NCBI GenBank assembly: GCA_016187515.1
Contig: JACPJN010000009.1
Span: 132,891-196,890, forward strand
Source: Candidatus Uhrbacteria bacterium
GTDB taxonomy: Bacteria; Patescibacteriota; Patescibacteriia; GWA2-47-26
Length of the DNA: 64,000 nt
Direction of reading: 5' to 3'
Under the pieces are notes generated by a model. It was given only the letters and a program-made list of their open reading frames with translations. It had not been told where the DNA came from and ran no database searches. This document shows, piece by piece, positions 2,468-56,257 of this stretch. The first letter of the stretch is position 1, and each line of letters opens with the position of its first letter. Both the position numbers and the translations under genes were made by a program.

Positions 2468-2600
2468 AGTGGCCGACGGCGGTGTGTGAGCGCAGCATTG
2501 GGAGCGTCTGCAGTCCTCTCTGCAATTTTCCCTATGCTCTTAAATTGCAGAGGGACGGAAGAGGACCCTTGCAGCTGCGAGCACACACTGCCGGCGGGCG
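2468..2600. ncRNA. Candidate structured RNA: long hairpin with nested internal helices
   Basis: Outer pairing cggcggtgtgtgagcgcagc / gctgcgagcacacactgccg. Inner stems are ctgcagtcctct/agaggacccttgcag and ctctgcaatt/aattgcagag. Lies between a minus-strand CDS and tRNA-Ser. Confidence 0.3.
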
Positions 2601-2656
2601 CTTTGAGCGACCCTACCACGAGCGTGTTCCGAGACAGGCACTCCTGATGGTTTCCA

Positions 2657-3037
2657 TCACCTCCCCAATCCTACCACAACTGCCTCAACCAGTTCAACCC
2701 GCATAAGATACCAAGCCACGGCCAGGAGACCGCCAACCGCCGTCATTCCAAAACCAACCCCCAGCCAAAATGAGATACGCGGCGGCGCTAACGGGCGGTG
2801 AATCATTCTAGGCCGCATTTGCAACGGTTGATTATCTTGCGGAACTGCCGGGACCGGCTGCGGGAGTTGACTAACCCGTGACGGATTTATCAGCTGTTCC
2901 TTGGCTATTCCAAGCGTCGCGGCATTAAGCACGCTTTTTAGCGCCCTTTTTTTAATCGGCGACCCGCGTCCGGCTCGGGCACGGCGCTTTTTCAGTTGAT
3001 GGCCTTGCGATTTTTGAGAAATTTGCTTTTGGGTCAT
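2657..3037 (-). CDS. Hypothetical basic/Pro-rich protein with C-terminal transmembrane segment
   Basis: ORF only; a hydrophobic stretch sits at the C-terminus. Confidence 0.35.
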   Translation of the reverse strand: MTQKQISQKSQGHQLKKRRARAGRGSPIKKRALKSVLNAATLGIAKEQLINPSRVSQLPQPVPAVPQDNQPLQMRPRMIHRPLAPPRISFWLGVGFGMTAVGGLLAVAWYLMRVELVEAVVVGLGR

Positions 3038-10625: not shown

Positions 10626-11135
10626 TCAACAGCACTGTTCTAATCCCTTCTCGATGTTCTGCACATTTTGCGCGTCGGATCGGTGCGGCGCGTGCGGTTC
10701 GCCATGGATCCCGCGCCGAATAAAGAACACATACACCACACCCGACAGTACTACGAGTTCAACTCCCAGTGTGGCCCAGCTCATATATTGCACCGCGCCG
10801 TACACTAGCGGAAACCCTACCACCATAACCGCAAGTTTCCACGCGATCGGATAGCGCCGAACCCAGTGCAGGGATTTTTCGCCTTGATACGCAATACCAA
10901 CCACCGTGCCGCCCATGAGGATTGAGATGGGAATTATGAATGATGAATCCCCGCACCAGAGCAAGCTCGGTGCGGGGCAGGTAGGAATTATGCCACTAAG
11001 CACAAGAACGCTAAGCGTGATCCATGTACTGCTGACTCCGGCGCATACCGGACACAATTTGAATGGCAAGAGCTTGTTCAAGAACCAAACCACGCCTGTG
11101 ATAATGAGAATGAGCAGTATAGCAAGCCACATCAT
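10626..11135 (-). CDS. Integral membrane protein with CPVC motif, putative DsbB/VKOR-like thiol oxidoreductase
   Basis: Four to five TM helices; CPVC after TM1 and a second Cys pair TCPAPSLLWC. Family assignment is uncertain. Confidence 0.4.
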   Translation of the reverse strand: MMWLAILLILIITGVVWFLNKLLPFKLCPVCAGVSSTWITLSVLVLSGIIPTCPAPSLLWCGDSSFIIPISILMGGTVVGIAYQGEKSLHWVRRYPIAWKLAVMVVGFPLVYGAVQYMSWATLGVELVVLSGVVYVFFIRRGIHGEPHAPHRSDAQNVQNIEKGLEQCC

Positions 11136-23761: not shown

Positions 23762-24580
23762 TCAAGTGATGTCGTGCTGATGCTCTCCCCAAGAGCAAAA
23801 TCCGCACTGACTATGATGCGCCGGCGACTGATCGCTCTGCAGTAGTCGAGCGGCGTTTTCGAATAATTGCCGAGCGCGCTTTATACTGGTTTCCATCCGT
23901 TTGGGCGTTATTTCAAACTGCACGACTCCATTCTCGCGCACTTCAATCGGGTGATAATACACTAACCATCCCACTCCTTTGGTTTTATAACCATTCTCGT
24001 GCAAAAGCCACTCGTAAATATCTAACTGGTGCTGATAAAATCCGGAAGAATCCTCTTTTGGCGCGTACCCGCGGGTTTTGTAATCAAGCGGTACGTAATA
24101 GCGTGCCAAATTCCTTTTACTGCTCCCCTCTCCCCCGTGTGGGAGAGGGCTAGGGTGAGGGGATTCAGTAACCACCAAACAATCATCCAAAAGTCCGATG
24201 AGTTTCGTGTTGAGTTTTTTATCAAAATAGCGCAGACCACCAGTGCGCGCGCGCCAGCCATTCAGTAATTTCTGGTCAGCGAGCAGCTTCCCCTCCACTT
24301 TTCCGCGGATTTCCGGCGGTAACCCTTCCTTTGTTCCGCGAAACTTATCAAAGTAAGTTTTTATAACACCATCCATTCCTCCCGGAAGTGAAGGGAAAAT
24401 GGTTTTTGGACGATGCACGCCCATTTTAAGCTGTAACCAAAAACACCGCGGACATTCTTTAAAAAGCGAGAGCGTGGAGGCGGAAAGCTGGATAAATCGT
24501 CCAACCTCACGGTCATTGCGAGGAGCTTTCATTGCTCCGCCAAGCGGTAACCTTCCATTCGTTCCCATAGGGTTATTCAT
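23762..24580 (-). CDS. PD-(D/E)XK nuclease superfamily protein with Cys cluster (Cas4/RecB-like fold), carries in-frame palindromic insert
   Basis: N-terminal CPRCFW; LLDDCLVV...VPLDYK fits D...ExK; C-terminal CGFCSW. Insert encodes SPHPSPLPHGGEGSS. Confidence 0.5.
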   Translation of the reverse strand: MNNPMGTNGRLPLGGAMKAPRNDREVGRFIQLSASTLSLFKECPRCFWLQLKMGVHRPKTIFPSLPGGMDGVIKTYFDKFRGTKEGLPPEIRGKVEGKLLADQKLLNGWRARTGGLRYFDKKLNTKLIGLLDDCLVVTESPHPSPLPHGGEGSSKRNLARYYVPLDYKTRGYAPKEDSSGFYQHQLDIYEWLLHENGYKTKGVGWLVYYHPIEVRENGVVQFEITPKRMETSIKRARQLFENAARLLQSDQSPAHHSQCGFCSWGEHQHDIT

Positions 24581-28539: not shown

Positions 28540-28610
28540 AATTTTATAGACAACAAATAGACATTTGCCTTGCTGATAATATCATAGTTTATCGGATTTG
28601 TATATGCCAC

Positions 28611-28745
28611 GAGCGACAACCACTCCTTCTCCCACCCCCTCTAACTCCCCCTCGGGCAGGGGGAGAAACCTCCTTGAAAAGGAGGGGGGACTTTTTAATT
28701 TCCCCTCCTCTTTGAGGAGGGGTTAGGGGTGGTGAGAGAGTTCTT
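28611..28745. repeat. GC-rich mosaic palindromic element (ccaccccctctaactccccctcgggcagggggagaaacctcc; cccctcctctttgaggagggg)
   Basis: Direct read; a related copy sits at 29228-29290. Confidence 0.75.
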
Positions 28746-29094
28746 TGATAATCCCGGCGATTACCTCGCCAACATTCTCACATACATCATTGTCGGTAAA
28801 TCGAAGCACGCGAATTCCTTGGGCTTCAATGAACTTCTGCCGTTGTGCATCCCGCCGCTTCGCTCCCTCCTGATAATGACTATCCCCATCCAGCTCGACG
28901 ACCAATTTTACCCTGGGACAATAAAAATCGACCACATGAGGGCCGATTCCTTGCTGCCGACGAAATTTATACCCTTCCACATTACTCCCTCGCAGATAGT
29001 ACCAGAGAATTTTCTCACTCCGTGTCATTCGACTACGAAGTTTTTGACGCGTGGATTTTTGTGCGTTCGGGTTAAACAATTTTACCATAACCAC
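28723..29094 (-). CDS. DUF559 (Vsr-like) endonuclease-domain protein
   Basis: GYKFRRQQGIGPHVVDFYCPRVKLVVELDGDSH...RDAQRQKFIEAQGIRVLRF matches the DUF559 pattern. Confidence 0.75.
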   Translation of the reverse strand: MVMVKLFNPNAQKSTRQKLRSRMTRSEKILWYYLRGSNVEGYKFRRQQGIGPHVVDFYCPRVKLVVELDGDSHYQEGAKRRDAQRQKFIEAQGIRVLRFTDNDVCENVGEVIAGIIKELSHHP

Positions 29095-29330
29095 CCCTTA
29101 ATCCCCTCCTTGGAAAGGAGGGGAAATCTTAACCACCCCTTAATCCCCTCCTTGGAAAGGAGGGGAAATCTTAACCACCCCTTAATCCCCTCCTTGGAAA
29201 GGAGGGGAAATCTTAACCGCCCCTTCTCCCACCCCCTCTAACTCCCCCTCGCCTGCCCGCCTCTGGAGGGGGCAGGGGGAGAAACCTCCTTGCCTGTCCG
29301 CCTCTGGCGGGGAAAGGAGGGGAAATCAAA
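29095..29330. repeat. Three tandem copies of a 42-bp hairpin unit (cttaaccaccccttaatcccctccttggaaaggaggggaaat), then a GC-rich palindromic segment
   Basis: Direct read. Confidence 0.85.
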
Positions 29331-31034: not shown

Positions 31035-31829
31035 TCAATTTATGCTCTCCACCTTAACGCTCACCACCCCCACTTTCGGATTGGCCAAGTGTTCAAATGC
31101 GGCCCGATCCAGATCAATCACCCGCTCCGGGTGCTTTAGCCGGTCCGGGCCAAAATCATTAACCTTCACGACTACGGATTTACCGTTATCCACATTGGTT
31201 ACTTTCAACCGCGCGCCTGGAGGATAGTCCGGGGAAGCGGCACAATGGCAGTTCTTATATTTATACCAGCTCGCGAGCCCTTTTTCAAGTACCTGATTGT
31301 GGGAAAATACCGCTAAATAAGTCGTCCCTGTGGAAATCTCCGCCCGCAAGCGGTTTTTATCCGCAACGCTTTGCGAAGGAATATCCCGCCAGACATTATC
31401 ATCACCCCAGACCCGCAGGATTTTTTTTCCTAACGCTTCGCTAGGATAGCGAATTTCAACCGGCAGAGTTACCCCGGCGTTTCCCTTGATCACCAGACGA
31501 TACATGGGGGTAATCCGATGGACTTCCCCCAGGTTTAAATAGTACTCCGAGGCAAAAGTCGCGATCTCCACGCGGCTGCCGCCTAGAAGCGCTCCGGGCA
31601 TTATCCCGATTTTGACTCGCTCTCCCAGATTGCCCAACGTTATCCCTTTAACCGCCGTATCACTGTCAATCGTCCAGGCCTTTTGCTCCACCCCGATTGC
31701 CAATACTTGGGCCTGGGCGGAAGGAATGAAGAATGGAGAATGCAGAGAAAGAAAGAGCATGAAAAATGAAGCGTGAAGAATGAAGAATCTTGAACGATTG
31801 GTATTCATAATTCTTAATTCTACATTCAT
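31035..31829 (-). CDS. RlpA-like double-psi beta-barrel lipoprotein (septal lytic transglycosylase family)
   Basis: C-terminal GLASWYKYKNCHCAASPDYPPGARLKVTNVDNGKSVVVKVNDFGP fits the DPBB fold. Confidence 0.65.
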   Translation of the reverse strand: MNVELRIMNTNRSRFFILHASFFMLFLSLHSPFFIPSAQAQVLAIGVEQKAWTIDSDTAVKGITLGNLGERVKIGIMPGALLGGSRVEIATFASEYYLNLGEVHRITPMYRLVIKGNAGVTLPVEIRYPSEALGKKILRVWGDDNVWRDIPSQSVADKNRLRAEISTGTTYLAVFSHNQVLEKGLASWYKYKNCHCAASPDYPPGARLKVTNVDNGKSVVVKVNDFGPDRLKHPERVIDLDRAAFEHLANPKVGVVSVKVESIN

Positions 31830-31833
31830 ATTC

Positions 31834-31878
31834 TGGAGCCACCTCCGGGGATCGAACCCGGGACCTCTGCTTTACGAA
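31834..31878 (-). other. Orphan tRNA 3' half (anticodon loop to CCA): TTCGTAAAGCAGAGGTCCCGGGTTCGATCCCCGGAGGTGGCTCCA
   Basis: Canonical T-arm plus CCA but no matching 5' acceptor strand. Its first 17 nt equal the anticodon/variable region of the adjacent tRNA-Thr. Confidence 0.6.
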
Positions 31879-31898
31879 CCCCGCACCTTAAGCGCCAA

Positions 31899-31971
31899 AG
31901 CCGATGGTGGGATTTGCACCCACGACCTCTGCTTTACGAAAGCATTGCTCTGCTGGCTGAGCTACATCGGC
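31899..31971 (-). tRNA. tRNA-Thr(CGT), 73 nt, unusual T-loop TGCAAAT, no CCA
   Basis: Reverse complement GCCGATGTAGCTCAGCCAGCAGAGCAATGCTTTCGTAAAGCAGAGGTCGTGGGTGCAAATCCCACCATCGGCT. Enclosed by the 17-bp inverted repeat ccccgcaccttaagcgc / gcgcttaaggtgcgggg. Confidence 0.7.
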
Positions 31972-32073
31972 GCTTAAGGTGCGGGGCTACCGGCTGAGTC
32001 CCGACGCCCCTCGGGGTCGGGAGGCCGACCACAGCGTCGGCCCTAGGTCGGCGAACGCAAAAATTATACGCCA

Positions 32074-32895
32074 TCAAATGTCCGGTGTCAACTTGCCCTC
32101 ACCGGCAGGATTATAGCCCCGGTCAATCTCATCCCCATCCAGAAAGGTGTCATTGTCGCTATCGGGGTTGGCCGGATCAGTTCCCCAAAATATCTCCAAG
32201 GCGTCGGATAGGCCATCCTGGTCAAAATCCGCGAAAAATTCCGCGGTATCAACCGAACCGCCGGTAAGATAAGGCAGCGGCTTTGGCGCGCCATTGCGCT
32301 GCGCAGTAAGGTCCTGGAGTTGAGCGACCACTGCCCCAAGCTCTCGAACGGATACCGCCGCCGCGCTTAAGAACGGGTCTTGATATTGCGCTGCTCCCCT
32401 AAACTGGCCAACGCTGAAATTTATGGGCAGTCCGGAACTCCTCTTAAAAGCGAGCATTCCATTTTGATTGGGTATGCCCTTAAATAATTCCAAGACCTCC
32501 GGATCCCACTCAAACGCGTAACGCTCGCGCCCATGAATAAAATCCTTAAAGGCGGTCAGGCGTTTAACCAAGCGCAAGTGCGAAAAGACATGATTGCTTT
32601 TACCCAGGGTAATCCAGCGATTATTCAAAAGTTTTACCGGCGGATAAGCGATCCGCAGCCAGAGCTCCCCTTTTCTTTTCACCAGGTCAAGATACATTGG
32701 TTCCTTTCCGATCTGGCCTTCAAAGCGCATGCTCCAGACCGGCTCACGGTCCAAAGCGGCTTCCATATCCATCCGCGCGGCCTCGGGCGGATAATAAAAA
32801 AAGGCCGCGGCGGCCAAGAGCGCCGAGACGATCAAACTCTTTAATGCCGTTTCAATTCTCATACCGTGGGAAGCGGCGCTTTTATCTCTTCCCAT
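32074..32895 (-). CDS. Secreted hypothetical protein with C-terminal Asp-rich calcium-binding-like repeats (DQDGLSD, DPANPDSDND, DGDEID)
   Basis: Signal anchor and TSP3-like Asp motifs. Confidence 0.4.
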   Translation of the reverse strand: MGRDKSAASHGMRIETALKSLIVSALLAAAAFFYYPPEAARMDMEAALDREPVWSMRFEGQIGKEPMYLDLVKRKGELWLRIAYPPVKLLNNRWITLGKSNHVFSHLRLVKRLTAFKDFIHGRERYAFEWDPEVLELFKGIPNQNGMLAFKRSSGLPINFSVGQFRGAAQYQDPFLSAAAVSVRELGAVVAQLQDLTAQRNGAPKPLPYLTGGSVDTAEFFADFDQDGLSDALEIFWGTDPANPDSDNDTFLDGDEIDRGYNPAGEGKLTPDI

Positions 32896-35293: not shown

Positions 35294-36619
35294 CTATTGA
35301 GCCGGCGCTGGCACAGGCGCGGGCGCGGTTTCCCCAAAGGGATTGGCTCCCTCTGGTTGCGCCGGTTTTTCAAGCGCCTCGAATTTTTGCTGTAGCCGTT
35401 CAATGCGCTCCAAAACATTGCCCGGCACGGCGCGGCGCTTGCGTTCACTGTCAAAAATCAAATTAAACATTTTCTGTCCCAGCTCGCGCTGGATCGCTTC
35501 CATGGTCTCGCGCGCCACGCGGTATTCTCCGTCCCGTAAGGCCTCTTTAACCGGTATTAACAGATCATCCAGCTGCGTTTTAAGTTCCGGATCTTTAACG
35601 CGGCGAAGCGGCTCAATAAACCCGCGCATCATCTGCAGCGCACCGTTTACGTCGCCGGGCCAGCCGGGCTCATGAAACGCGTCCTGAAGAATACCGCGCG
35701 CATCCTCATACTCTCCCGCTTGATAAGCCGCTTTGGCTTCCGCGTATTTGGCGGCAAAATTCGCCATGATCGTATTGCACTCCTCCCGGCTAAACACCTT
35801 ATCCACCCATTTCTGTTTACAAAGATTCTTGGCGCGATTCAGGTCGCGCAAAACATTATTAAGCTCCTTCGGGAGTTCCACGGCCTGCCGAATCCGATTG
35901 ATCTCTTCCCAAAACTCTCCGGTATCTCCGCACTCTTCTCCCTCGAGTACGTCTTTCATGGCATCGTTATCCGTAGCCGCGTTTAATTGCGTCTGACACT
36001 GGGTTAGGCGTTCCTTAATCGCGTCCAGCTTAACCAGTTCATCTTGAGAACCTTTAAGGCGCACCAGTTGCTTGCGCACTTTCGCTGATTCCCGCAACTG
36101 ATCGCGCCACTCGCGCAGCCGGTCTTGTTTCCACCGCGCGGTATCTTGCCCCTCACGCTGCTCATGATCATCATCCTTCATCTCCGGCCTCGACTCGCCC
36201 GGACCCGCGTCCTTTAATTCTCCTTGCGGCGGATAATTACTGCATGGGCCGGGCATCTCCACTCCATTTACTCGACAGGTCTCCTTTACCGGCTCTTTCA
36301 CTTCCAAACCCGGCTGCGGGACCGGTGGCTGCCCTTCTACGGCGGGGGGCTGGGGTTGCACTGGCTGCGCGGGCTGTGTAAGTTCGGCGGACGGCGCTGG
36401 CGGCGTCACGGTTTGCCCTTGATCTTGGGCAATCAAATACCCGGGCTCCGGAAGCAGCTCGGATAAAATCGCCCCCTGCTGCTGCGCCGCGCTACCCAGC
36501 TGGATTGACCCGGAAAGCAGAAATAACGCGGTGGCGGCCAAAACGCTGCCCGCGATTTTAATCGTCTTTTCCTTTACGTCGCCACGATGATAGTGGCAAA
36601 AATAACAGAGATTGCGCAT
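35294..36619 (-). CDS. Secreted/anchored coiled-coil protein, hypothetical
   Basis: N-terminal TM, Pro/Gln-rich linker, long charged helical region. Confidence 0.45.
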   Translation of the reverse strand: MRNLCYFCHYHRGDVKEKTIKIAGSVLAATALFLLSGSIQLGSAAQQQGAILSELLPEPGYLIAQDQGQTVTPPAPSAELTQPAQPVQPQPPAVEGQPPVPQPGLEVKEPVKETCRVNGVEMPGPCSNYPPQGELKDAGPGESRPEMKDDDHEQREGQDTARWKQDRLREWRDQLRESAKVRKQLVRLKGSQDELVKLDAIKERLTQCQTQLNAATDNDAMKDVLEGEECGDTGEFWEEINRIRQAVELPKELNNVLRDLNRAKNLCKQKWVDKVFSREECNTIMANFAAKYAEAKAAYQAGEYEDARGILQDAFHEPGWPGDVNGALQMMRGFIEPLRRVKDPELKTQLDDLLIPVKEALRDGEYRVARETMEAIQRELGQKMFNLIFDSERKRRAVPGNVLERIERLQQKFEALEKPAQPEGANPFGETAPAPVPAPAQ

Positions 36620-37828: not shown

Positions 37829-38569
37829 TCAAACTACTAACGATAACCTCGCCCGCTCGTCGCGTATGAGCGTCAAGACCTCTCGTTTCAGAACTTTTCG
37901 GACTAGCTGAAACTTCGCTGCGGGAAGGAGATAATTTAGGTCCTCCGAAAGTATCCGGTCGGTAATCTCTTGATCCACAAAGACATACAATTTCGCAAAA
38001 AAATCTTTTACCTTCATTCCGCTCCCCTCCCGGATCACCTCGGCGGAATAGTGGTACCCGCGCATAAAGAAAAAATGGACATCATACACGTCTCTTCCGG
38101 CAATGTTTCCGTGCGCCTCCGATCTTCCGATGAGCGCAAGAAGTTTATGCGCAAACATCGTCTCGATCGTCTGACACGTCAAAATACGATCAATCTCGGG
38201 CAGACGTTGCGGAGCGTAAGTATTCGCAGAAAGCAATGGAAATGCTGTGTCAATCTTTATAGCATTTCTTCCCTCCTCAATATACCGAAGAAAATATTGG
38301 ATGCCTTTTTTACTTGAATCCTTCACGGAAAGTCCAAGCGCCGTAAAGATGCGCTCAAGCGCGGTACGCGTTGCGACAATTTGTTTTTTGTCACCCGCAA
38401 AGTCAAAGTCAAGGTCAACGGAAAACCGATCAAGCCACCCGAGCATTGAGGCGCAAGTCCCTCCTTTAAAATAAAGCACATCTGGCAAAAACGGATCGTC
38501 CGCAATTTGCTCCAATACTCTATAAAGCCACGCTTTGTGCAGGGCGTCGTTTTTATTTGGTATGGTCAT
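37829..38569 (-). CDS. AbiEii/AbiGii-family nucleotidyltransferase toxin (type IV TA)
   Basis: YFKGGTCASMLGWLDRFSVDLDFDF matches the AbiEii signature. Confidence 0.7.
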   Translation of the reverse strand: MTIPNKNDALHKAWLYRVLEQIADDPFLPDVLYFKGGTCASMLGWLDRFSVDLDFDFAGDKKQIVATRTALERIFTALGLSVKDSSKKGIQYFLRYIEEGRNAIKIDTAFPLLSANTYAPQRLPEIDRILTCQTIETMFAHKLLALIGRSEAHGNIAGRDVYDVHFFFMRGYHYSAEVIREGSGMKVKDFFAKLYVFVDQEITDRILSEDLNYLLPAAKFQLVRKVLKREVLTLIRDERARLSLVV

Positions 38570-40748: not shown

Positions 40749-41921
40749 TTACCACTGCCAGGGAGAAATCTCAAACTGCAAACCAGTGGTAATCCGCAGA
40801 TCCTGTCCGGGGTTAACATGGACGATTTCCTGTTCAAGCCGCATCCACTCAAACCCTATCCAATTCCAGACCAACGTAACTTGCCCACTCACCGGAATGC
40901 GTAGACCAAACTTCCCATTGGCCTCCCGATGCAGACTTTCCGAAGAGAGCGGCAAAAACAAACGCAATTCTCCGAACGGCTGTACCACCCCGCCGAGTTT
41001 GGGCATTACCCCCTCAAGTAACACCATCCAAAATGAGGAATGCGCGTAAACTACCTCGGGCATTGCCGGTTTTTCCATCTGCGGTGACACGCGATTCATC
41101 ATTGTTTCCGCGTGATGAATGTGCCGCAGGCGCCAATCCGCGCCGCCGGGTCCGACATGCAGCCGCAGACGCCAACTATCCGGATCAAACATACTTTCCG
41201 GTATGCTCCCGGACGTGCGTTCCACAAGCCCGTCCAATTCCGCTTGCAGGTCTGCACACCGCTCGGCGCTTTGTTCATCCGACTTGGCCGCATCCCGAGC
41301 TTGCCTGCTAACGGCCTTAAGAGTATCCCGCAAAACCGGACATAACGGCGCAGTCCGTTGCGTTCGCGCGACAAGCACCAGCCCGACTCCTCCGCTTCCT
41401 CGAAGATGCGAAAGTATATCATTATGCACCCCTTCCTCAACATCCCCAAACACAATTCCGGATCGCTTTCCATCTCCATACAAACTCACTCCCAAAATCA
41501 AAACGCCCCAGGAAAACGCTCGGCCATACGCTGCTTGCGGAAGAATCGCGTCAGCGGCTCCTGTCCAATCCACCAGTACATCATCGTGTATTTCTTCCCC
41601 GTCATCTGCTGTGGATTGCTCCGGACTTCTCGCTTCTTCAGCATGCCATCGCAACATCAAGGCGGTCCGCACATTCGCGTACCATGCACCAAACCCGCCA
41701 GCCGGTTTTATCAAACCGTAGGTGGTCAATTGCAGTTCCACTCCACCGCTGACGGTAAAATGCGGCTGATCTTCATGAATTTCCGCCCCCATCTGAACAT
41801 CACGCAGATTCAATTGCGGCCTGAGATACCACGACCTGCCTTGCGCATAACCATTTGGCAAAGCCATGACTTGCGCAAGCACAACCACTACAGCATGCCG
41901 ATAGAAAACTGTGCAGATCAT
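40749..41921 (-). CDS. Putative outer-membrane beta-barrel protein
   Basis: Signal peptide, amphipathic alternating strands, C-terminal aromatic end FEISPWQW. Start codon overlaps the upstream gene (ATGA). Confidence 0.4.
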   Translation of the reverse strand: MICTVFYRHAVVVVLAQVMALPNGYAQGRSWYLRPQLNLRDVQMGAEIHEDQPHFTVSGGVELQLTTYGLIKPAGGFGAWYANVRTALMLRWHAEEARSPEQSTADDGEEIHDDVLVDWTGAADAILPQAAYGRAFSWGVLILGVSLYGDGKRSGIVFGDVEEGVHNDILSHLRGSGGVGLVLVARTQRTAPLCPVLRDTLKAVSRQARDAAKSDEQSAERCADLQAELDGLVERTSGSIPESMFDPDSWRLRLHVGPGGADWRLRHIHHAETMMNRVSPQMEKPAMPEVVYAHSSFWMVLLEGVMPKLGGVVQPFGELRLFLPLSSESLHREANGKFGLRIPVSGQVTLVWNWIGFEWMRLEQEIVHVNPGQDLRITTGLQFEISPWQW

Positions 41922-43507
41922 TGGGAATCTCCTTTATTGATTGGTGGTTTCTTCGATCCGCTATAAAGCGAAAATCCCAGATACCCTCCGCCTCCTTGTT
42001 CACCCATCAATGCGCCAAAATGCACATCCAGGTTAAGATCCCGCAACAGTAATGACAAGGGTTCAATAGCCACAGTCACACCGACCATATTCGGAATTGG
42101 AATTATGCCTGCCGTAGGCGGCACTATAGACCCACCGGAACGTTCACCCATCGGCTCATAACCCAACCACAGGTAGCGGGCCTCAAATCCAGCTCCCACA
42201 TTGCGCACGCCGCCGTTATTCCAAAAGCGTCCACGGATACCAAAGCCGCCACCGCCTGCCAAATCAGGCGGAGGGCTGCCAGCAAGATACCCGACAAGAC
42301 CAAAGCGTAACCGCAAGAGCAGGCATAGATCCATCGGCACTTCACCCTCGTAGGTGAGTACATATGGAATTGGCGTAAGCGAAGTTCCAACTACCCCACC
42401 GCCCCGCACCAATCTGCCCGCCGCAAATGACGGCACACCGCACCACCAGCATGGCGGCCAAAGGATCTGCACCGGGCCTTTACAGCATCCGGGCCAAAAC
42501 CAACTCTTGAGCCCACGCTCGCAGGTCAGGCACGTCCACCGCAACCAGGTTTCCCAGCATTTCACGCAGTCCTCTTCATTTTCTGATTCTTCTGGTGTTG
42601 GTGGCCTGGGACTGGGTGGCGCTGGGGGTTTAGGCAGTGGGGAGGGCAACTTAATCGCCACCCTAAGAGATACTACCACGTGCAAGGCCGCAAAACGCTC
42701 CTCATCACCTGATTTTTCCGCTCGCCCAAGCCGCTCATAGCGCGGAGGATTTCGTTTGATGGATGTGGCCTTCGCGTTAGGAAATACCTCGCTCCACAGC
42801 TTACCTACCTTGTCCTTCAAGTGGTCATACGCCCAGTTATCAGCAAAGAAGATCCGTAGCAGTCCCAGTTGAACATGCGGGATTTGCTCTTTAGCATATT
42901 CATCGCTTTGCGCGACCTTCTGATACTCTTCCTTTTGCCCATCCGTAAGCGCAGCCCGATCTTCTCGGGCCAACTGGAGGTCCGCCTGGCCGGTAGAGCG
43001 CGTATTAAAATCCTGCGCATCAGATTGGCCGCGTCCGGTTGCGGTGAACTCGGAATGAACGACAGCAGTGTACCCTTTCGGCAGCGCGTCATTCAGACAC
43101 GCGCGGAGCGTTTCTCCCCACTCTTCTATATCGTTGGCGGTGTCAACCACGCTATACGCAAATTTTTGGTATTCTGAATACTTTCGAAGACCGTCCGCAT
43201 CCCACGCATGACTGCCGGATATCCAACTTTCGAGTCCGGGTATCAGCGGCATCTCTTCAGGCAATCTGAATTGCCCAAGTTTGTATCCAGAGACCTTAAA
43301 TTCTTGCGTAATCTCGTAGCTCACAACTCCATTTTCACAGCGCACCACGCGATCGCTTGCGACCGCATTGAGTTGAACGATACAAGGCGCAAGCGCGTCG
43401 CACACATCAGTCGTCACGTCTTGCGCAGCGTTGGCGTACGCCGAACTGCTGACCATGGCCCAAAGGATGCACACCCCGGGCCAGGCGTTCGTAAGTGGCC
43501 TTTCCAT
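41918..43507 (-). CDS. Large secreted protein with Trp/Cys-rich module (CVKCWETWLRWTCLTCERGLKSWFWPGCCKG...CWWCG) and Gly-rich C-terminal region
   Basis: Signal peptide; first gene of the apparent 4-gene operon. Confidence 0.45.
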   Translation of the reverse strand: MERPLTNAWPGVCILWAMVSSSAYANAAQDVTTDVCDALAPCIVQLNAVASDRVVRCENGVVSYEITQEFKVSGYKLGQFRLPEEMPLIPGLESWISGSHAWDADGLRKYSEYQKFAYSVVDTANDIEEWGETLRACLNDALPKGYTAVVHSEFTATGRGQSDAQDFNTRSTGQADLQLAREDRAALTDGQKEEYQKVAQSDEYAKEQIPHVQLGLLRIFFADNWAYDHLKDKVGKLWSEVFPNAKATSIKRNPPRYERLGRAEKSGDEERFAALHVVVSLRVAIKLPSPLPKPPAPPSPRPPTPEESENEEDCVKCWETWLRWTCLTCERGLKSWFWPGCCKGPVQILWPPCWWCGVPSFAAGRLVRGGGVVGTSLTPIPYVLTYEGEVPMDLCLLLRLRFGLVGYLAGSPPPDLAGGGGFGIRGRFWNNGGVRNVGAGFEARYLWLGYEPMGERSGGSIVPPTAGIIPIPNMVGVTVAIEPLSLLLRDLNLDVHFGALMGEQGGGGYLGFSLYSGSKKPPINKGDSQ

Positions 43508-55745: not shown

Positions 55746-55767
55746 AAAATTCCAAATTACACTTCTT

Positions 55768-55822
55768 TCGTCATCTCGACCGAGGCCCCGATCGGAATCG
55801 GGGCGGAGTGGAGAGATCTCAC
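55768..55822. repeat. Left terminal inverted repeat of the GIY-YIG element (cgtcatctcgaccgaggccccgatcggaatcggggcggagtggagagatctcacc)
   Basis: Imperfect inverted match to 56124-56180; related to the termini of the copB insert at 5608-5750. Confidence 0.7.
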
Positions 55823-56115
55823 CCCTTCCAATCCTGCGACAAGTCCTTAAAGTTTGGATTTACTTTTTTAATTAAATCCACCTTCTTCTTTCTTGACCAT
55901 CGTTTAAGCTGTTTCTCGCGAGCAATGGCATCATATGCAGTCTCATACACTTCATAGTACACTAGTTTATTGATATTGTATTTTTTGGTAAACCCTTCCA
56001 CCGCTTTCGCTTTGTGCTGGGCCGTTCTAGCCGGCAATACACTCGTCATACCAATATAGGAAGTGGTGTCCCACTTATTCATCATGATATACACGCAATA
56101 CTGTTTATCCTGCAT
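55819..56115 (-). CDS. GIY-YIG nuclease-family protein (UPF0213-like)
   Basis: YCVYIMMNKWDTTSYIGMTSVLPARTAQH matches the GIY-YIG motif; 98 aa. Confidence 0.8.
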   Translation of the reverse strand: MQDKQYCVYIMMNKWDTTSYIGMTSVLPARTAQHKAKAVEGFTKKYNINKLVYYEVYETAYDAIAREKQLKRWSRKKKVDLIKKVNPNFKDLSQDWKG

Positions 56116-56123
56116 AGCATGAT

Positions 56124-56180
56124 GTGAGATCCCTCGACTTCGCCCCGACTGCGGTCGAGGCTCCGCTCGGGATGACCACG
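56124..56180. repeat. Right terminal inverted repeat of the GIY-YIG element (gtgagatccctcgacttcgccccgactgcggtcgaggctccgctcgggatgaccacg)
   Basis: Reverse complement aligns with 55768-55822 (shared ends GTCATCYCGA ... GAGRGATCTCAC). Confidence 0.7.
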
Positions 56181-56257
56181 TTGTTTGAATTTGAAATTTC
56201 GGTCATTGGTATTTGTTTGTAATTTGTGATTTGTAATTTGGAATTTCAAGAACTGCG

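What the first reader, a model, noticed from the sequence alone, without database searches (positions are those of the whole stretch)
31834..31986. tRNA-Thr(CGT) enclosed by a perfect 17-bp inverted repeat and followed by an orphan tRNA 3' half sharing its anticodon region
Reading the minus strand: CCCCGCACCTTAAGCGC - tRNA-Thr (73 nt, atypical T-loop TGCAAAT, no CCA) - TTT - GGCGCTTAAGGTGCGGGG - TTCGTAAAGCAGAGGTCCCGGGTTCGATCCCCGGAGGTGGCTCCA.

The last block is a 45-nt tRNA 3' portion. It runs from the anticodon loop through a canonical GGTTCGATCC T-arm to an encoded CCA. Its acceptor strand (AGGTGGC) has no 5' partner nearby, and its first 17 nt are identical to positions 32-48 of the intact tRNA.

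This is the classic scar of site-specific recombination at a tRNA gene: an integrative element supplies a new 3' part and the displaced original 3' part remains. Here no element body lies between the two, and an inverted-repeat stem clamps the gene. Alternatives are an excised element or island with the att sites left behind, or an unusual tRNA processing arrangement.
Basis: partly seen in the sequence, partly recalled or inferred. Interest (0 to 1): 0.7.

Follow-up and report, generated by a model that had tools for sequence, protein, structure and literature searches.

The report
Replaced tRNA-Thr gene with leftover pieces
A candidate-phyla-radiation bacterium has had its threonine tRNA gene overwritten in place by a different copy of the same tRNA, leaving pieces of the old gene on both sides and a perfect hairpin clamp around the new one; this is a variant of a known kind of scar, and it recurs at other tRNA genes in related bacteria.

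Summary
On the minus strand there is an intact tRNA-Thr(CGT) at 31971..31899. It is enclosed by an 18-bp perfect inverted repeat and followed by a 45-nt tRNA 3' part at 31878..31834.

Syntenic loci from relatives (Ca. Uhrbacteria and other Patescibacteria) explain it. The orphan is the 3' part (positions 32-76) of the ancestral resident tRNA-Thr(CGT), 'type A' (GCCACCT...AGGTGGC). Type A is still intact at the same spot in L004, L010 and L172. The intact gene is a different, internally coherent tRNA-Thr(CGT), 'type B'. A degenerate type-A 5' fragment, split by GC hairpins, also lies upstream, directly after a perfect promoter.

No integrase or element body is present, and the new gene is not a 5'-old/3'-new chimera. 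It is therefore not the classic att scar. It is a whole-gene replacement, with the break at the boundary of the anticodon loop.

The right repeat arm is a window-specific inverted copy of the leader. In 248 related tRNA loci, 36 carry fragments of the same isoacceptor, and several are nested in the same way (Thr, Gly, Pro).

The mechanism is inferred: break repair or homing-like replacement, possibly involving GIY-YIG nucleases. Verdict: a new variant of a known kind, of moderate interest.

The parts
32063..32091 (-). Sigma-70-type promoter TTGACA-N17-TATAAT, overlapping the end of the upstream 273-aa gene. It presumably drives the whole tRNA locus and perhaps the rlpA-like gene.
   Evidence: 12 of 12 consensus match, and the only hit in the region; no terminator-like site in 31700-32200. 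The equivalent promoter sits 9-10 nt before the plain tRNA in L004 and L010.
32043..32052 (-). Old tRNA-Thr 5' fragment, first part (GCCGACCTAG, tRNA positions 1-10). It starts 10 nt after the -10 box, where the intact tRNA starts in L010.
   Evidence: The orthologous fragment in L172 reads GCCACCTTAG, the exact partner of the orphan's AGGTGGC.
31999..32042 (-). 44-nt insertion of two GC-rich hairpins (GGCCGAC..GTCGGCC and TCCCGAC..GTCGGGA) inside the old D arm.
   Evidence: Inverted repeats I2 and I3. The same insertion is present in L172.
31987..31998 (-). Old tRNA-Thr 5' fragment, second part (CTCAGCCGGTAG, D-loop region, positions 11-22).
   Evidence: Identical to the D-loop region of the intact type-A tRNA in L010 and L172. 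Direct repeat D4 with the D loop of the intact gene.
31969..31986 (-). Left arm of the 18-bp perfect inverted repeat (CCCCGCACCTTAAGCGCC). This is the leader of the intact tRNA plus its first 3 nt. The first 11 nt are resident leader sequence shared with L172.
31899..31971 (-). Intact tRNA-Thr(CGT), 'type B': acceptor GCCGATG/CATCGGC, D loop AGCCAGCA (no GG), T loop TGCAAAT, discriminator T, no encoded CCA.
   Evidence: ARAGORN. Rfam 62.6 bits. The same type occurs in L002, L007, L046 and L170, with compensatory acceptor and T-stem changes.
31879..31896 (-). Right arm of the inverted repeat (GGCGCTTAAGGTGCGGGG), preceded by TT (31898-31897). It is an inverted copy of the leader plus GCC. It is absent from L171 and L172, which differ there, and from L170, which lacks the interval.
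31834..31878 (-). Orphan 3' part (positions 32-76 plus CCA) of the displaced resident type-A tRNA-Thr(CGT). It contains GGAGGTG 12 nt upstream of the ATG at 31829.
   Evidence: 93% identical to positions 32-76 of the L029 tRNA. Its 25-nt T arm and acceptor are identical to the L009 orphan and match the L004 tRNA at 24 of 25. A homologous orphan in L171 keeps the hairpin through compensatory changes.
31035..31829 (-). RlpA-like (DPBB) gene immediately downstream. It is the conserved neighbour of tRNA-Thr(CGT) across Patescibacteria and is probably co-transcribed with it.
   Evidence: Pfam DPBB_1, E = 1.8e-13. Synteny. tRNA-Thr(CGT) was found in 128 of the 170 sequences scanned (169 loci plus the window), almost always within about 1 kb upstream of the rlpA match.

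Best explanation
This is a tRNA-Thr(CGT) locus that has been overwritten in place.

The ancestral arrangement is still seen in L010 and L004: promoter, one 'type A' tRNA-Thr(CGT), then the rlpA-like gene. In the lineage of the window, a complete and structurally distinct tRNA-Thr(CGT) gene ('type B') was inserted. It replaced the 5' part of the resident gene up to the 5' edge of the anticodon loop. The resident 3' part (positions 32-76) was left stranded as the 'orphan'. An older, hairpin-riddled 5' fragment of a type-A gene remains in the transcribed leader.

The new gene has no promoter of its own. It is read from the old promoter, which would explain why such fragments are nearly always co-oriented.

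The 18-bp clamp is not an att site. Its left arm is the local leader. Its right arm is an exact inverted copy of that leader plus the first three bases of the tRNA. It was made during or after the insertion, most likely by template switching in break repair. It is recent, because it is perfect and window-specific.

I infer that the insertion came from repair of a double-strand break in the resident gene, using a foreign or ectopic tRNA-Thr gene as template. This is homing-like gene replacement without target duplication. GIY-YIG nucleases are the best candidate for making the break.

Shown: the anatomy, the identity of the pieces, and the recurrence in relatives.
Inferred: the break-repair mechanism, the nuclease, and any present-day role of the clamp or the orphan.
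For: Identity of the pieces:
- Type A is intact at the syntenic site in L004/5/6, L010 and L172.
- The orphan's T arm and acceptor match type A.
- Type B is a coherent whole gene in L002, L007, L046 and L170. Pair 6:67 covaries (T-A, A-T, C-G), as does the T stem (GTGGG/CCCAC versus GAGGG/CCCTC).

Order of events:
- L171 (RlpA 69% identical) has type B, a different 40-nt spacer and a homologous orphan, so the replacement predates the clamp.
- L172 (60%) has the same 5' fragment, hairpins and CCCCGCACCTT leader, followed by a complete type-A gene with no right arm. So the left arm is resident sequence.

Not a classic element:
- The perfect promoter lies 10 nt before the 5' fragment, with no terminator.
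- No integrase in the 28 ORFs scanned.
- No Rfam intron or ribozyme in the interval.

Recurrence:
- Nested genes of the same isoacceptor occur in L009 and L102 (Thr), L056, L141 and L011 (Gly), and L002 (Pro).
- 36 of 248 distinct tRNA loci carry same-anticodon fragments, and 43 of 44 fragments are co-oriented. Breakpoints cluster in the anticodon loop and the T loop.
- Strong leader-trailer stems are associated with fragments: 6 of 16 versus 19 of 211, Fisher p = 0.004.
- L056 shows a clean insertion after the anticodon with no target duplication.

GIY-YIG link:
- In L002 and L090, a 92-aa GIY-YIG ORF sits inside a 19-bp inverted repeat (CCCCGCGCCTTAATCGCAC) that matches the window's arm at 15 of 18 positions. 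It lies about 150 nt upstream of the same type-B tRNA.
- 6 of 7 GIY-YIG ORFs in the data set lie within 500 nt of tRNA genes. In L015 one truncates a tRNA-Ser copy that is followed by an intact twin.
Against: - No nuclease gene is at the locus in the window. The nearest GIY-YIG ORF is 24 kb away.
- The sampled loci are rich in tRNA genes, so the GIY-YIG/tRNA proximity (6 of 7) is only suggestive.
- No donor of type B was identified, and a viral-contig scan for its anticodon arm found nothing.
- The order of events is ambiguous. The orphan's true 5' partner could be either the upstream fragment or a gene part that was deleted.
- The leader fragment is more conserved between the window and L172 (92% in ungapped columns) than the rlpA-like DNA (74%). 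The orphan keeps its hairpin by compensatory changes in L171. Both hint that the 'leftovers' may have a function that this explanation does not require.
- In silico, the clamp competes with the acceptor stem: P(cloverleaf) is 1.7e-4, against 0.33 with a shuffled right arm. It may therefore be mildly harmful rather than neutral.
Confidence: 0.55

Rival explanations
1. Classic integrase scar. A tyrosine-recombinase element integrated at the anticodon-loop site of tRNA-Thr(CGT) and supplied a new 3' part. The element body was later deleted, leaving attL and attR 20 nt apart.
For: - The orphan is a co-oriented 3' fragment starting exactly at position 32, with a 17-nt identity block.
- Across the related loci, 3' fragments are common and start mostly in the T loop (17 of 25) or the anticodon loop (3 of 25). 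Small inserts of 90-190 nt are bounded by direct repeats of the tRNA 3' end, as att sites would be.
Against: - The intact gene's 5' half is not the resident type. GCCGATG pairs perfectly with its own 3' strand, not with AGGTGGC. Its D loop and T loop co-vary as a unit that is found whole in other genomes.
- A type-A 5' fragment lies upstream as well, which one-sided att duplication does not produce.
- No integrase in the 28 ORFs scanned.
- The 17-nt block is the common Uhrbacterial Thr(CGT) anticodon arm.
Confidence: 0.15
2. The clamp and the orphan are functional RNA features. The 18-bp leader-trailer helix would be a processing stem, cut for example by RNase III as in rRNA operons. The orphan would have been co-opted as the structured 5' UTR and ribosome-binding site (GGAGGTG) of the co-transcribed rlpA-like gene. 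This is compatible with the best explanation for the origin of the pieces.
For: - Leader-trailer stems are over-represented at tRNAs in these genomes: 7.6% fall beyond the first percentile of mismatched controls.
- Between close cassette pairs (L080/L102 and L032/L036), all 4 transitions in the stems give G.U pairs.
- The orphan's GGAGGTGGCT is conserved in the window, L171 and L009. It lies 5 nt before the ATG in L009 and 12 nt before it in the window.
- The orphan hairpin is kept by two compensatory pair changes in L171.
- There is no terminator between the tRNA and the gene.
Against: - Over all stems, G.U and A.C mismatches are 6 to 5, so there is no RNA-level bias.
- The long repeat around the L039 tRNA-Gly decays with both kinds of mismatch.
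- The perfect arm is absent in L171 and L172 (which differ there) and in L170 (which lacks the interval), so it is not conserved.
- It lowers the predicted probability of the cloverleaf.
- L170 and L007 have no orphan and no GGAGG before the gene.
- NCBI's own start for the protein is 7 codons further down.
Confidence: 0.25
3. The repeat-bounded tRNA is itself a small mobile cassette, MITE-like or a hairpin element with cargo. It inserts into loops of cognate tRNA genes and is mobilised in trans.
For: - The inserted unit ends within a few nucleotides of the base of the stem in the window, L009, L102 and L056.
- L080 and L102 share a homologous stem-plus-tRNA unit in different contexts.
- The same repeat family brackets a GIY-YIG ORF in L002 and a tRNA in the window.
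- The window's own GIY-YIG ORF is also bracketed by inverted repeats.
- The outer 9 bp of the clamp (CCCCGCACC/GGTGCGGGG) is the stem of a dispersed hairpin found at window 10949-10977, inside the 5' end of the rlpA-like gene in L009, and after a tRNA-Pro 5' fragment in L010.
Against: - Only one copy of the full arm occurs in the 64-kb window.
- There is no target-site duplication.
- The left arm's first 11 nt are resident leader, also present in L172 without a right arm.
- No transposase was identified.
- Stems differ in sequence between loci.
Confidence: 0.15
4. A split or intron-containing tRNA. The outer pieces would be exons, and the hairpins and inner tRNA would be removed from the transcript to give a second functional tRNA-Thr.
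For: - In L056, the outer tRNA-Gly(CCC) is complete and undecayed apart from an insertion right after the anticodon.
- GC hairpins sit in D and T loops, as archaeal mini-introns do.
- The leader pieces are unusually conserved.
Against: - In the window, the outer pieces lack positions 23-31.
- Their acceptor strands pair at only 5 of 7 positions.
- No group I or II intron hit.
- The organism is a bacterium (FtsEX, RlpA, sigma-70 promoter), with no known BHB splicing machinery.
Confidence: 0.03
5. Assembly artefact: a chimera of two strains carrying type A and type B, or a fold-back artefact.
For: - Logan contigs break inside the tRNA, as L001 and L170 start there. This shows that the repeats trouble assemblers.
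Against: - The same junctions appear in an independently assembled contig.
- A homologous B-plus-orphan arrangement occurs in another sample assembled with another tool.
- A k-mer chimera would give an in-register A/B hybrid, not a duplicated 17-mer plus an inverted leader copy.
- Many independent loci show the same architecture.
Confidence: 0.03

Closest known systems
Displaced tRNA gene fragments at genomic-island and prophage integration sites (Islander-type attL/attR; PMC4383910).
   Same: - A co-oriented 3' fragment of the target tRNA lies downstream of a functional copy.
- The fragment begins at the edge of the anticodon loop.
- In the wider data set, most 3' fragments begin in the T loop.
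   Different: - There is no island, integrase or att-style core duplication.
- The functional copy is a whole foreign gene rather than resident 5' plus imported 3'.
- A 5' fragment is also left upstream.
- Only 20 nt separate the gene and the fragment.
Free-standing GIY-YIG homing endonucleases that drive inheritance of tRNA gene regions (phage T4 SegB). This comparison is from my own knowledge and was not checked in the library.
   Same: - GIY-YIG ORFs sit next to or inside tRNA genes in related loci.
- Insertion occurs without target duplication.
- The invaded locus keeps a working copy of the tRNA.
   Different: - No endonuclease gene is at the window's locus.
- No cleavage specificity is known.
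- The host is a cellular CPR genome, not a phage.
- A whole replacement tRNA is nested in the old one.
Xenologous gene displacement in situ (replacement of a gene by a horizontally acquired homologue at the same locus). Concept from my own knowledge.
   Same: The same isoacceptor, the same locus, the same promoter and the same neighbours, but a different gene lineage.
   Different: Here the displaced gene was not removed. It was interrupted, and its pieces persist on both sides.
Group I introns in tRNA anticodon loops of Patescibacteria (PMC13011429)
   Same: The same phylum, and the same target region (the anticodon loop of tRNA genes).
   Different: - The 108-nt insert has no ribozyme.
- It contains a tRNA.
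- The outer gene cannot be restored by its removal.
- No Rfam intron hit.
Archaeal split and multi-intron tRNAs, and rRNA-type processing stems
   Same: - tRNA pieces are separated by structured inserts.
- A long helix is formed by sequences flanking a stable RNA.
   Different: - The genome is bacterial.
- The exons are incomplete.
- No BHB motif was shown.
- The helix is not conserved in the closest relatives.

Membership tests
Integrase-mediated tRNA-gene integration scar (attL/attR) | A co-oriented displaced 3' fragment of the target tRNA, beginning in the anticodon loop, T loop or 3' end | tested here: met
   The orphan is positions 32-76 on the same strand, 20 nt downstream.
Integrase-mediated tRNA-gene integration scar (attL/attR) | The regenerated gene is resident 5' part plus element-supplied 3' part | tested here: not met
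   The 5' half is type B, not resident type A. Type B occurs as a whole gene elsewhere.
Integrase-mediated tRNA-gene integration scar (attL/attR) | An element body with an integrase between the gene and the fragment (or nearby) | tested here: not met
   The interval is 20 nt. No Phage_integrase hit in the 28 ORFs scanned across the window (11.1-60.6 kb, contiguous from 21.5 to 45.4 kb around the locus). The rest of the genome was not searched.
Split / BHB-intron tRNA | The exons reconstitute a complete cloverleaf with a paired acceptor stem | tested here: not met
   Positions 23-31 are absent. GCCGACC versus AGGTGGC pairs at 5 of 7.
Split / BHB-intron tRNA | The host has the archaeal-type splicing endonuclease | not tested
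   The genome context is bacterial. No search for EndA was made.
Group I intron in a tRNA gene | Ribozyme core detectable by the covariance model; removal of the insert restores the tRNA | tested here: not met
   No intron family at E <= 10 in 31500-32300. The outer gene is incomplete.
GIY-YIG homing-endonuclease cassette | An endonuclease ORF within or beside the insertion | tested here: not met
   None at the locus. The nearest homologue is at 55891-56100. One is present within a homologous inverted repeat at the same locus in L002 and L090.
GIY-YIG homing-endonuclease cassette | The enzyme cleaves the uninterrupted target allele | not testable with these tools
   This needs a cleavage assay on type-A tRNA-Thr DNA.
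MITE / TIR-bounded non-autonomous element | Terminal inverted repeats | tested here: met
   18-bp perfect repeat.
MITE / TIR-bounded non-autonomous element | Target-site duplication and multiple dispersed copies | tested here: not met
   No flanking duplication. Only this pair of arms in the window at <= 3 mismatches, plus one chance-level hit. Only the 9-bp outer stem recurs.
RNase III-type processing stem | A leader-trailer helix conserved, with covariation, among relatives | tested here: inconclusive
   Stems are enriched, but G.U to A.C is 6 to 5. The right arm is absent in L170, L171 and L172.

The most novel reading that the evidence does not exclude
Patescibacteria may harbour a previously undescribed class of selfish 'self-replacing' tRNA cassettes. 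Each would be a complete tRNA gene bracketed by an inverted repeat, sometimes partnered with a small GIY-YIG nuclease gene bracketed by the same repeat. It would insert into the anticodon, T or D loops of the cognate resident tRNA gene. It would be tolerated because it brings its own working copy and uses the old promoter. The window's locus would be one such cassette caught soon after its clamp formed. A still bolder variant is that the small GC hairpins and nested tRNAs are removed from transcripts, which would make them bacterial mini-introns.
Probability: 0.15. Interest if true: 0.8.

Novelty: new variant of a known kind. Interest (0 to 1): 0.5.

Why it matters
tRNA genes are usually treated as static, single-copy landmarks in the tiny genomes of candidate-phyla-radiation bacteria. 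This locus and its relatives show frequent turnover instead. About one in seven sampled tRNA loci carries a fragment of the same isoacceptor. Several are nested like Russian dolls, with a whole new gene sitting inside the old one.

For annotation, this means orphan halves and hairpin-split fragments should not be counted as tRNAs, introns or att sites without comparison to relatives.

For biology, it raises a testable idea: nucleases or other agents repeatedly break specific tRNA genes, and replacement by a foreign copy is the usual way out. If that is confirmed, it would be a new way in which core translation genes are exchanged horizontally.

Tried and rejected
- I searched the window for GCCACCT as a remote 5' half. 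The 10 hits are at chance level and none has a D arm.
- Rfam at permissive thresholds gave only the tRNA, both on the locus and on nine related loci. Nothing was found in the inserts.
- ARAGORN's 'tRNA-Gly' at 29111-29193 is a false call inside a 42-nt tandem repeat.
- I tried reading the upstream sequence plus the repeat arms as a tRNA-Leu(UAA) or as a D-arm-less tRNA. The acceptor and D stems do not pair, so I rejected this by inspection.
- I tested whether the stems show an RNA-level signature, meaning more G.U than A.C mismatches. The count was 6 to 5, which is inconclusive.
- I tested the idea that the clamp insulates tRNA folding from the flanking pseudo-tRNA pieces. The opposite was found: the clamp lowers the predicted probability of the cloverleaf.
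- A viral-contig scan for the type-B anticodon arm returned 0 hits.
- Four literature searches found no description of nested tRNA-in-tRNA genes in bacteria. They returned only the known integration-fragment and group I intron literature.
- At first I took the upstream 5' fragment to be the direct partner of the orphan. L172 shows that the same fragment sits in front of a complete type-A gene. It may therefore belong to an older layer, and the pairing is left open.
Full report
**What is at the coordinates**

Read on the minus strand, the interval runs as follows:
- the left repeat arm CCCCGCACCTTAAGCGCC (31986..31969), whose last three bases are the first three of the tRNA;
- a 73-nt tRNA-Thr(CGT) (31971..31899);
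- TT;
- the right arm GGCGCTTAAGGTGCGGGG (31896..31879);
- a 45-nt block (31878..31834) that is a tRNA 3' part from the first base of the anticodon loop to an encoded CCA.

ARAGORN and Rfam report one normal tRNA (62.6 bits). Neither calls the 45-nt block. The repeat is 18 bp and perfect, not 17 bp. The 17-nt direct repeat with positions 32-48 is confirmed. A Logan contig from SRR12113418 reproduces the 3' part of the tRNA, the right arm, the orphan and the start of the next gene base for base.

**Organism and neighbourhood**

The downstream ORF (31829..31035) is an RlpA-like DPBB protein, followed by FtsE and FtsX. Upstream are a 273-aa protein with a TSP3-like repeat and a PilT-like ATPase. 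The protein is 100% identical to HYW17_05785 of a Candidatus Uhrbacteria MAG, so this is a candidate-phyla-radiation bacterium.

A 12-of-12 sigma-70 promoter (TTGACA-N17-TATAAT, 32091..32063) lies at the end of the upstream gene. There is no terminator-like site between it and the rlpA-like gene.

**Relatives give the key**

I fetched the syntenic region through homologues of the RlpA-like protein. tRNA-Thr(CGT) was found in 128 of the 170 sequences scanned (169 loci plus the window), almost always within about 1 kb upstream of the rlpA match and in either orientation.

Among the closer relatives there are two gene types:
- Type A is GCCACCTTAGCTCAGCYGGTAGAGC...CCGGGTTCGATTCCCGGAGGTGGCT. It stands alone, 9-10 nt after the -10 box, in L004/5/6 and L010.
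- Type B has acceptor GCCGAWG, a D loop AGCYAGCA without the usual GG, and a T loop TGCAAWT. It is the window's intact gene. It also occurs as a whole gene with CCA in L002/L090, L007/L008, L046 and L170.

Type B varies by compensatory changes. Pair 6:67 is T-A, A-T or C-G, and the T stem is GTGGG/CCCAC or GAGGG/CCCTC. It therefore behaves as a functional tRNA.

The orphan's T arm and acceptor strand are type A. They match L004 at 24 of 25 positions and are identical to an orphan in L009. The whole 45 nt is 93% identical to positions 32-76 of the L029 gene.

The 17-nt identity with the intact gene needs no crossover to explain it. That anticodon arm (AATGCTTTCGTAAAGCAGAGGTC) is common to Uhrbacterial tRNA-Thr(CGT) genes of both acceptor types.

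**The upstream half is there too**

Ten nucleotides after the -10 box, where the tRNA begins in L010, the window reads as follows:
- GCCGACCTAG (32052..32043);
- a 44-nt insertion made of two GC hairpins (32042..31999);
- CTCAGCCGGTAG (31998..31987), identical to the D-loop region of type A;
- the left repeat arm.

L172 (RlpA 60% identical) has the same layout: GCCACCTTAG, the same hairpins, CCCAGCTGGCAG and CCCCGCACCTTTCTTTT. There, however, a complete type-A gene follows, with no right arm and no orphan.

L171 (69%) has type B without CCA, an unrelated 40-nt spacer, and then a homologous orphan. L170 (72%) has type B with CCA abutting the same downstream sequence and no orphan.

Three things follow:
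1. The first 11 nt of the left arm are resident leader sequence, not imported.
2. Type B entered a type-A locus before the window and L171 diverged.
3. The right arm is an exact inverted copy of the recombinant leader plus GCC. It is specific to the window and therefore recent.

Whether the orphan's original 5' partner was the upstream fragment or a part that was deleted cannot be decided.

**Why this is not the classic att scar, an intron or a split tRNA**

A classic integration leaves resident 5' plus imported 3', then the element, then the displaced 3' part. Here the 5' half of the working gene is not the resident type. It pairs perfectly with its own 3' strand and would pair with AGGTGGC only after four changes.

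Only 20 nt lie between the gene and the fragment. None of the 28 ORFs scanned across the window (contiguous from 21.5 to 45.4 kb around the locus) is an integrase.

The outer pieces lack positions 23-31, and their acceptor strands pair at 5 of 7 positions. No splicing could therefore rebuild a tRNA. No intron or ribozyme family matches. An assembly chimera would give an in-register hybrid. It would not give a duplicated 17-mer with an inverted leader copy, and the arrangement recurs in independent samples.

**The same thing happens elsewhere**

I masked intact tRNAs and searched 300-nt flanks with all tRNAs of the same anticodon:
- 36 of 248 distinct tRNA loci carry a fragment.
- 43 of 44 fragments are co-oriented with the intact gene.
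- The 25 downstream 3' fragments start at positions 53-60 in 17 cases and at 32-36 in 3 cases.
- The upstream 5' fragments end at positions 17, 17, 23, 24, 33, 35, 36, 36 and 71.

Truly nested cases include the following:
- L102: a Thr gene with an imperfect stem of about 19 bp sits inside a gene identical to the L017 tRNA, which is split after position 33.
- L009: three layers of tRNA-Thr genes, with an 11-bp stem continuous with the acceptor helix.
- L056: an undecayed tRNA-Gly(CCC) is interrupted right after its anticodon by stem, tRNA-Gly(CCC) and stem, with a further stem arm and 3' part downstream.
- L141, L011 and L097 (Gly), and L002 (Pro).

Strong leader-trailer complementarity occurs in 7.6% of tRNAs, against 1% of mismatched controls. 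It is associated with fragments: 6 of 16 versus 19 of 211, p = 0.004. L080 and L102 share a homologous stem-plus-tRNA unit in different contexts.

Old copies often carry GC-rich hairpins of about 20-60 nt in their D, anticodon or T loops.

**Mechanism**

Shown: a whole gene of the same isoacceptor is inserted into the old gene, at or near a loop, without target duplication. It is co-oriented and has no promoter of its own.

Inferred: a double-strand break in the resident gene was repaired from a foreign or ectopic tRNA gene. Template switching produced the inverted leader copy.

The best candidate for the break is a small GIY-YIG nuclease:
- In L002 and L090, a 92-aa GIY-YIG ORF lies inside a 19-bp inverted repeat. 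Its arm (CCCCGCGCCTTAATCGCAC) matches the window's arm at 15 of 18 positions. It sits about 150 nt upstream of the same type-B tRNA.
- The window's own homologue (about 55830-56110) is enclosed by a 53-nt imperfect repeat and a 15-nt perfect repeat.
- 6 of 7 such ORFs in the data lie within 500 nt of tRNA genes.
- In L015, one truncates a hairpin-riddled tRNA-Ser(GCT) copy that is followed by an intact twin.

This link is suggestive rather than proven, because the sampled regions are dense in tRNA genes.

**Does the clamp or the orphan do anything now?**

Tests for RNA-level selection on the stems were inconclusive (G.U to A.C, 6 to 5). In silico, the clamp competes with the acceptor stem because it uses G1C2C3. 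P(cloverleaf) is 1.7e-4, against 0.33 with a shuffled right arm. It is more likely a young by-product than an adaptation. If it is tolerated, a double-strand-specific nuclease would be needed to open it.

The orphan and the leader look less like junk. The leader is 92% identical to that of L172 in ungapped columns, while the rlpA-like DNA is 74% identical. In L171 the orphan keeps its hairpin through two compensatory pair changes and keeps GGAGGTGGCTCCA. That motif lies 5 nt before the start codon in L009 and 12 nt before the ATG at 31829 in the window. A role as the 5' UTR and ribosome-binding site of the co-transcribed gene is plausible but untested. L170 and L007 do without it.

**Comparison with known systems, and verdict**

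The closest known thing is the displaced tRNA fragment at an integration site (PMC4383910; fragment mis-annotation is discussed in PMC9897764). Two of its three defining features were tested and not met.

It works more like in-situ displacement of a gene by a foreign homologue, perhaps driven in the manner of free-standing GIY-YIG homing endonucleases in phage tRNA regions. That comparison is from my own knowledge.

Group I introns are known in Patescibacterial tRNA anticodon loops (PMC13011429), but this insert is not one. Literature searches found no description of nested tRNA-in-tRNA genes in bacteria.

I rate it a new variant of a known kind. The finding itself is an evolutionary scar, but it is one instance of a wider and apparently undescribed pattern of tRNA gene turnover. 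Interest: 0.5.

Noticed in passing
window 28610-28730 and 29090-29330: Intergenic tandem repeats of about 42 nt, each with a hairpin (CCCCTCCTTTCCAAGGAGGGG). ARAGORN miscalls one stretch (29111-29193) as an 83-nt tRNA-Gly(TCC). Rfam does not.
   Followed up: partly
window about 55747-56246 (minus strand): A small GIY-YIG nuclease ORF (about 56110..55830) is enclosed by a 53-nt imperfect inverted repeat (55770-55822 / 56124-56176) and an outer 15-nt perfect repeat. This gives a cassette-like unit of about 500 bp.
   Followed up: partly
window 10949-10977; L009 4037-4101; L010 436-465: A dispersed hairpin, CCCCGCACC...GGTGCGGGG(CAGG), shares its 9-bp stem with the outer part of the tRNA clamp. 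The window copy is flanked by direct repeats GGAATTATG. The L009 copy lies inside the 5' end of the rlpA-like ORF. The L010 copy follows a tRNA-Pro 5' fragment.
   Followed up: partly
window 31899-31971; L002, L007, L046 (Thr); L004, L010 (Pro): These tRNAs have G at T-loop position 55 (TGC instead of TTC) together with D loops lacking G18G19. A further 33 of 210 distinct tRNAs have TCC. Position 55 is unusually variable in these Patescibacteria.
   Followed up: partly
L029 1770-1956; L057 1106-1268; L054 about 2545-2682; also L061, L076, L081, L097: Inserts of 90-190 nt lie directly after intact tRNAs, bounded by an 18-21-nt direct repeat of the tRNA 3' end (starting in the T loop). The L029 and L057 inserts share conserved blocks and begin with an inverted copy of the T arm. 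There is no Rfam match.
   Followed up: partly
L015 5607-6090: A tRNA-Ser(GCT) copy carries two related GC-hairpin insertions of about 30 nt (one in the D loop, one in the T loop). It is truncated by a GIY-YIG ORF and followed by an intact identical twin. The end of another GIY-YIG ORF precedes the broken copy, so the whole unit looks tandemly duplicated. L049 has a similar broken tRNA-Ser(TGA) with no intact copy visible in the fetched stretch.
   Followed up: partly
L056 2640-2870 (minus strand): The cleanest nested case. A complete tRNA-Gly(CCC) is interrupted after its anticodon by stem, a second tRNA-Gly(CCC) and stem. A second stem arm and a duplicate 3' part of the inner gene follow.
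   Followed up: partly
L039 about 2520-2810 (minus strand): A tRNA-Gly(CCC) sits at the centre of an imperfect inverted repeat of more than 100 nt per arm (roughly 85% complementary by eye), with both G.U-type and A.C-type mismatches.
   Followed up: no
window 31972-32052 versus L172: The transcribed leader (old 5' fragment plus GC hairpins) is 92% identical between genomes whose rlpA-like genes are 74% identical at the DNA level. The reason is unexplained. It could be selection, homogenisation or recurrent insertion.
   Followed up: partly
window 37829-38569 and 23762-24580: An AbiEii-type toxin gene and a PD-(D/E)XK nuclease gene are present. Several large ORFs (for example 40749-43507 and 35294-36619) have no Pfam match.
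   Followed up: no
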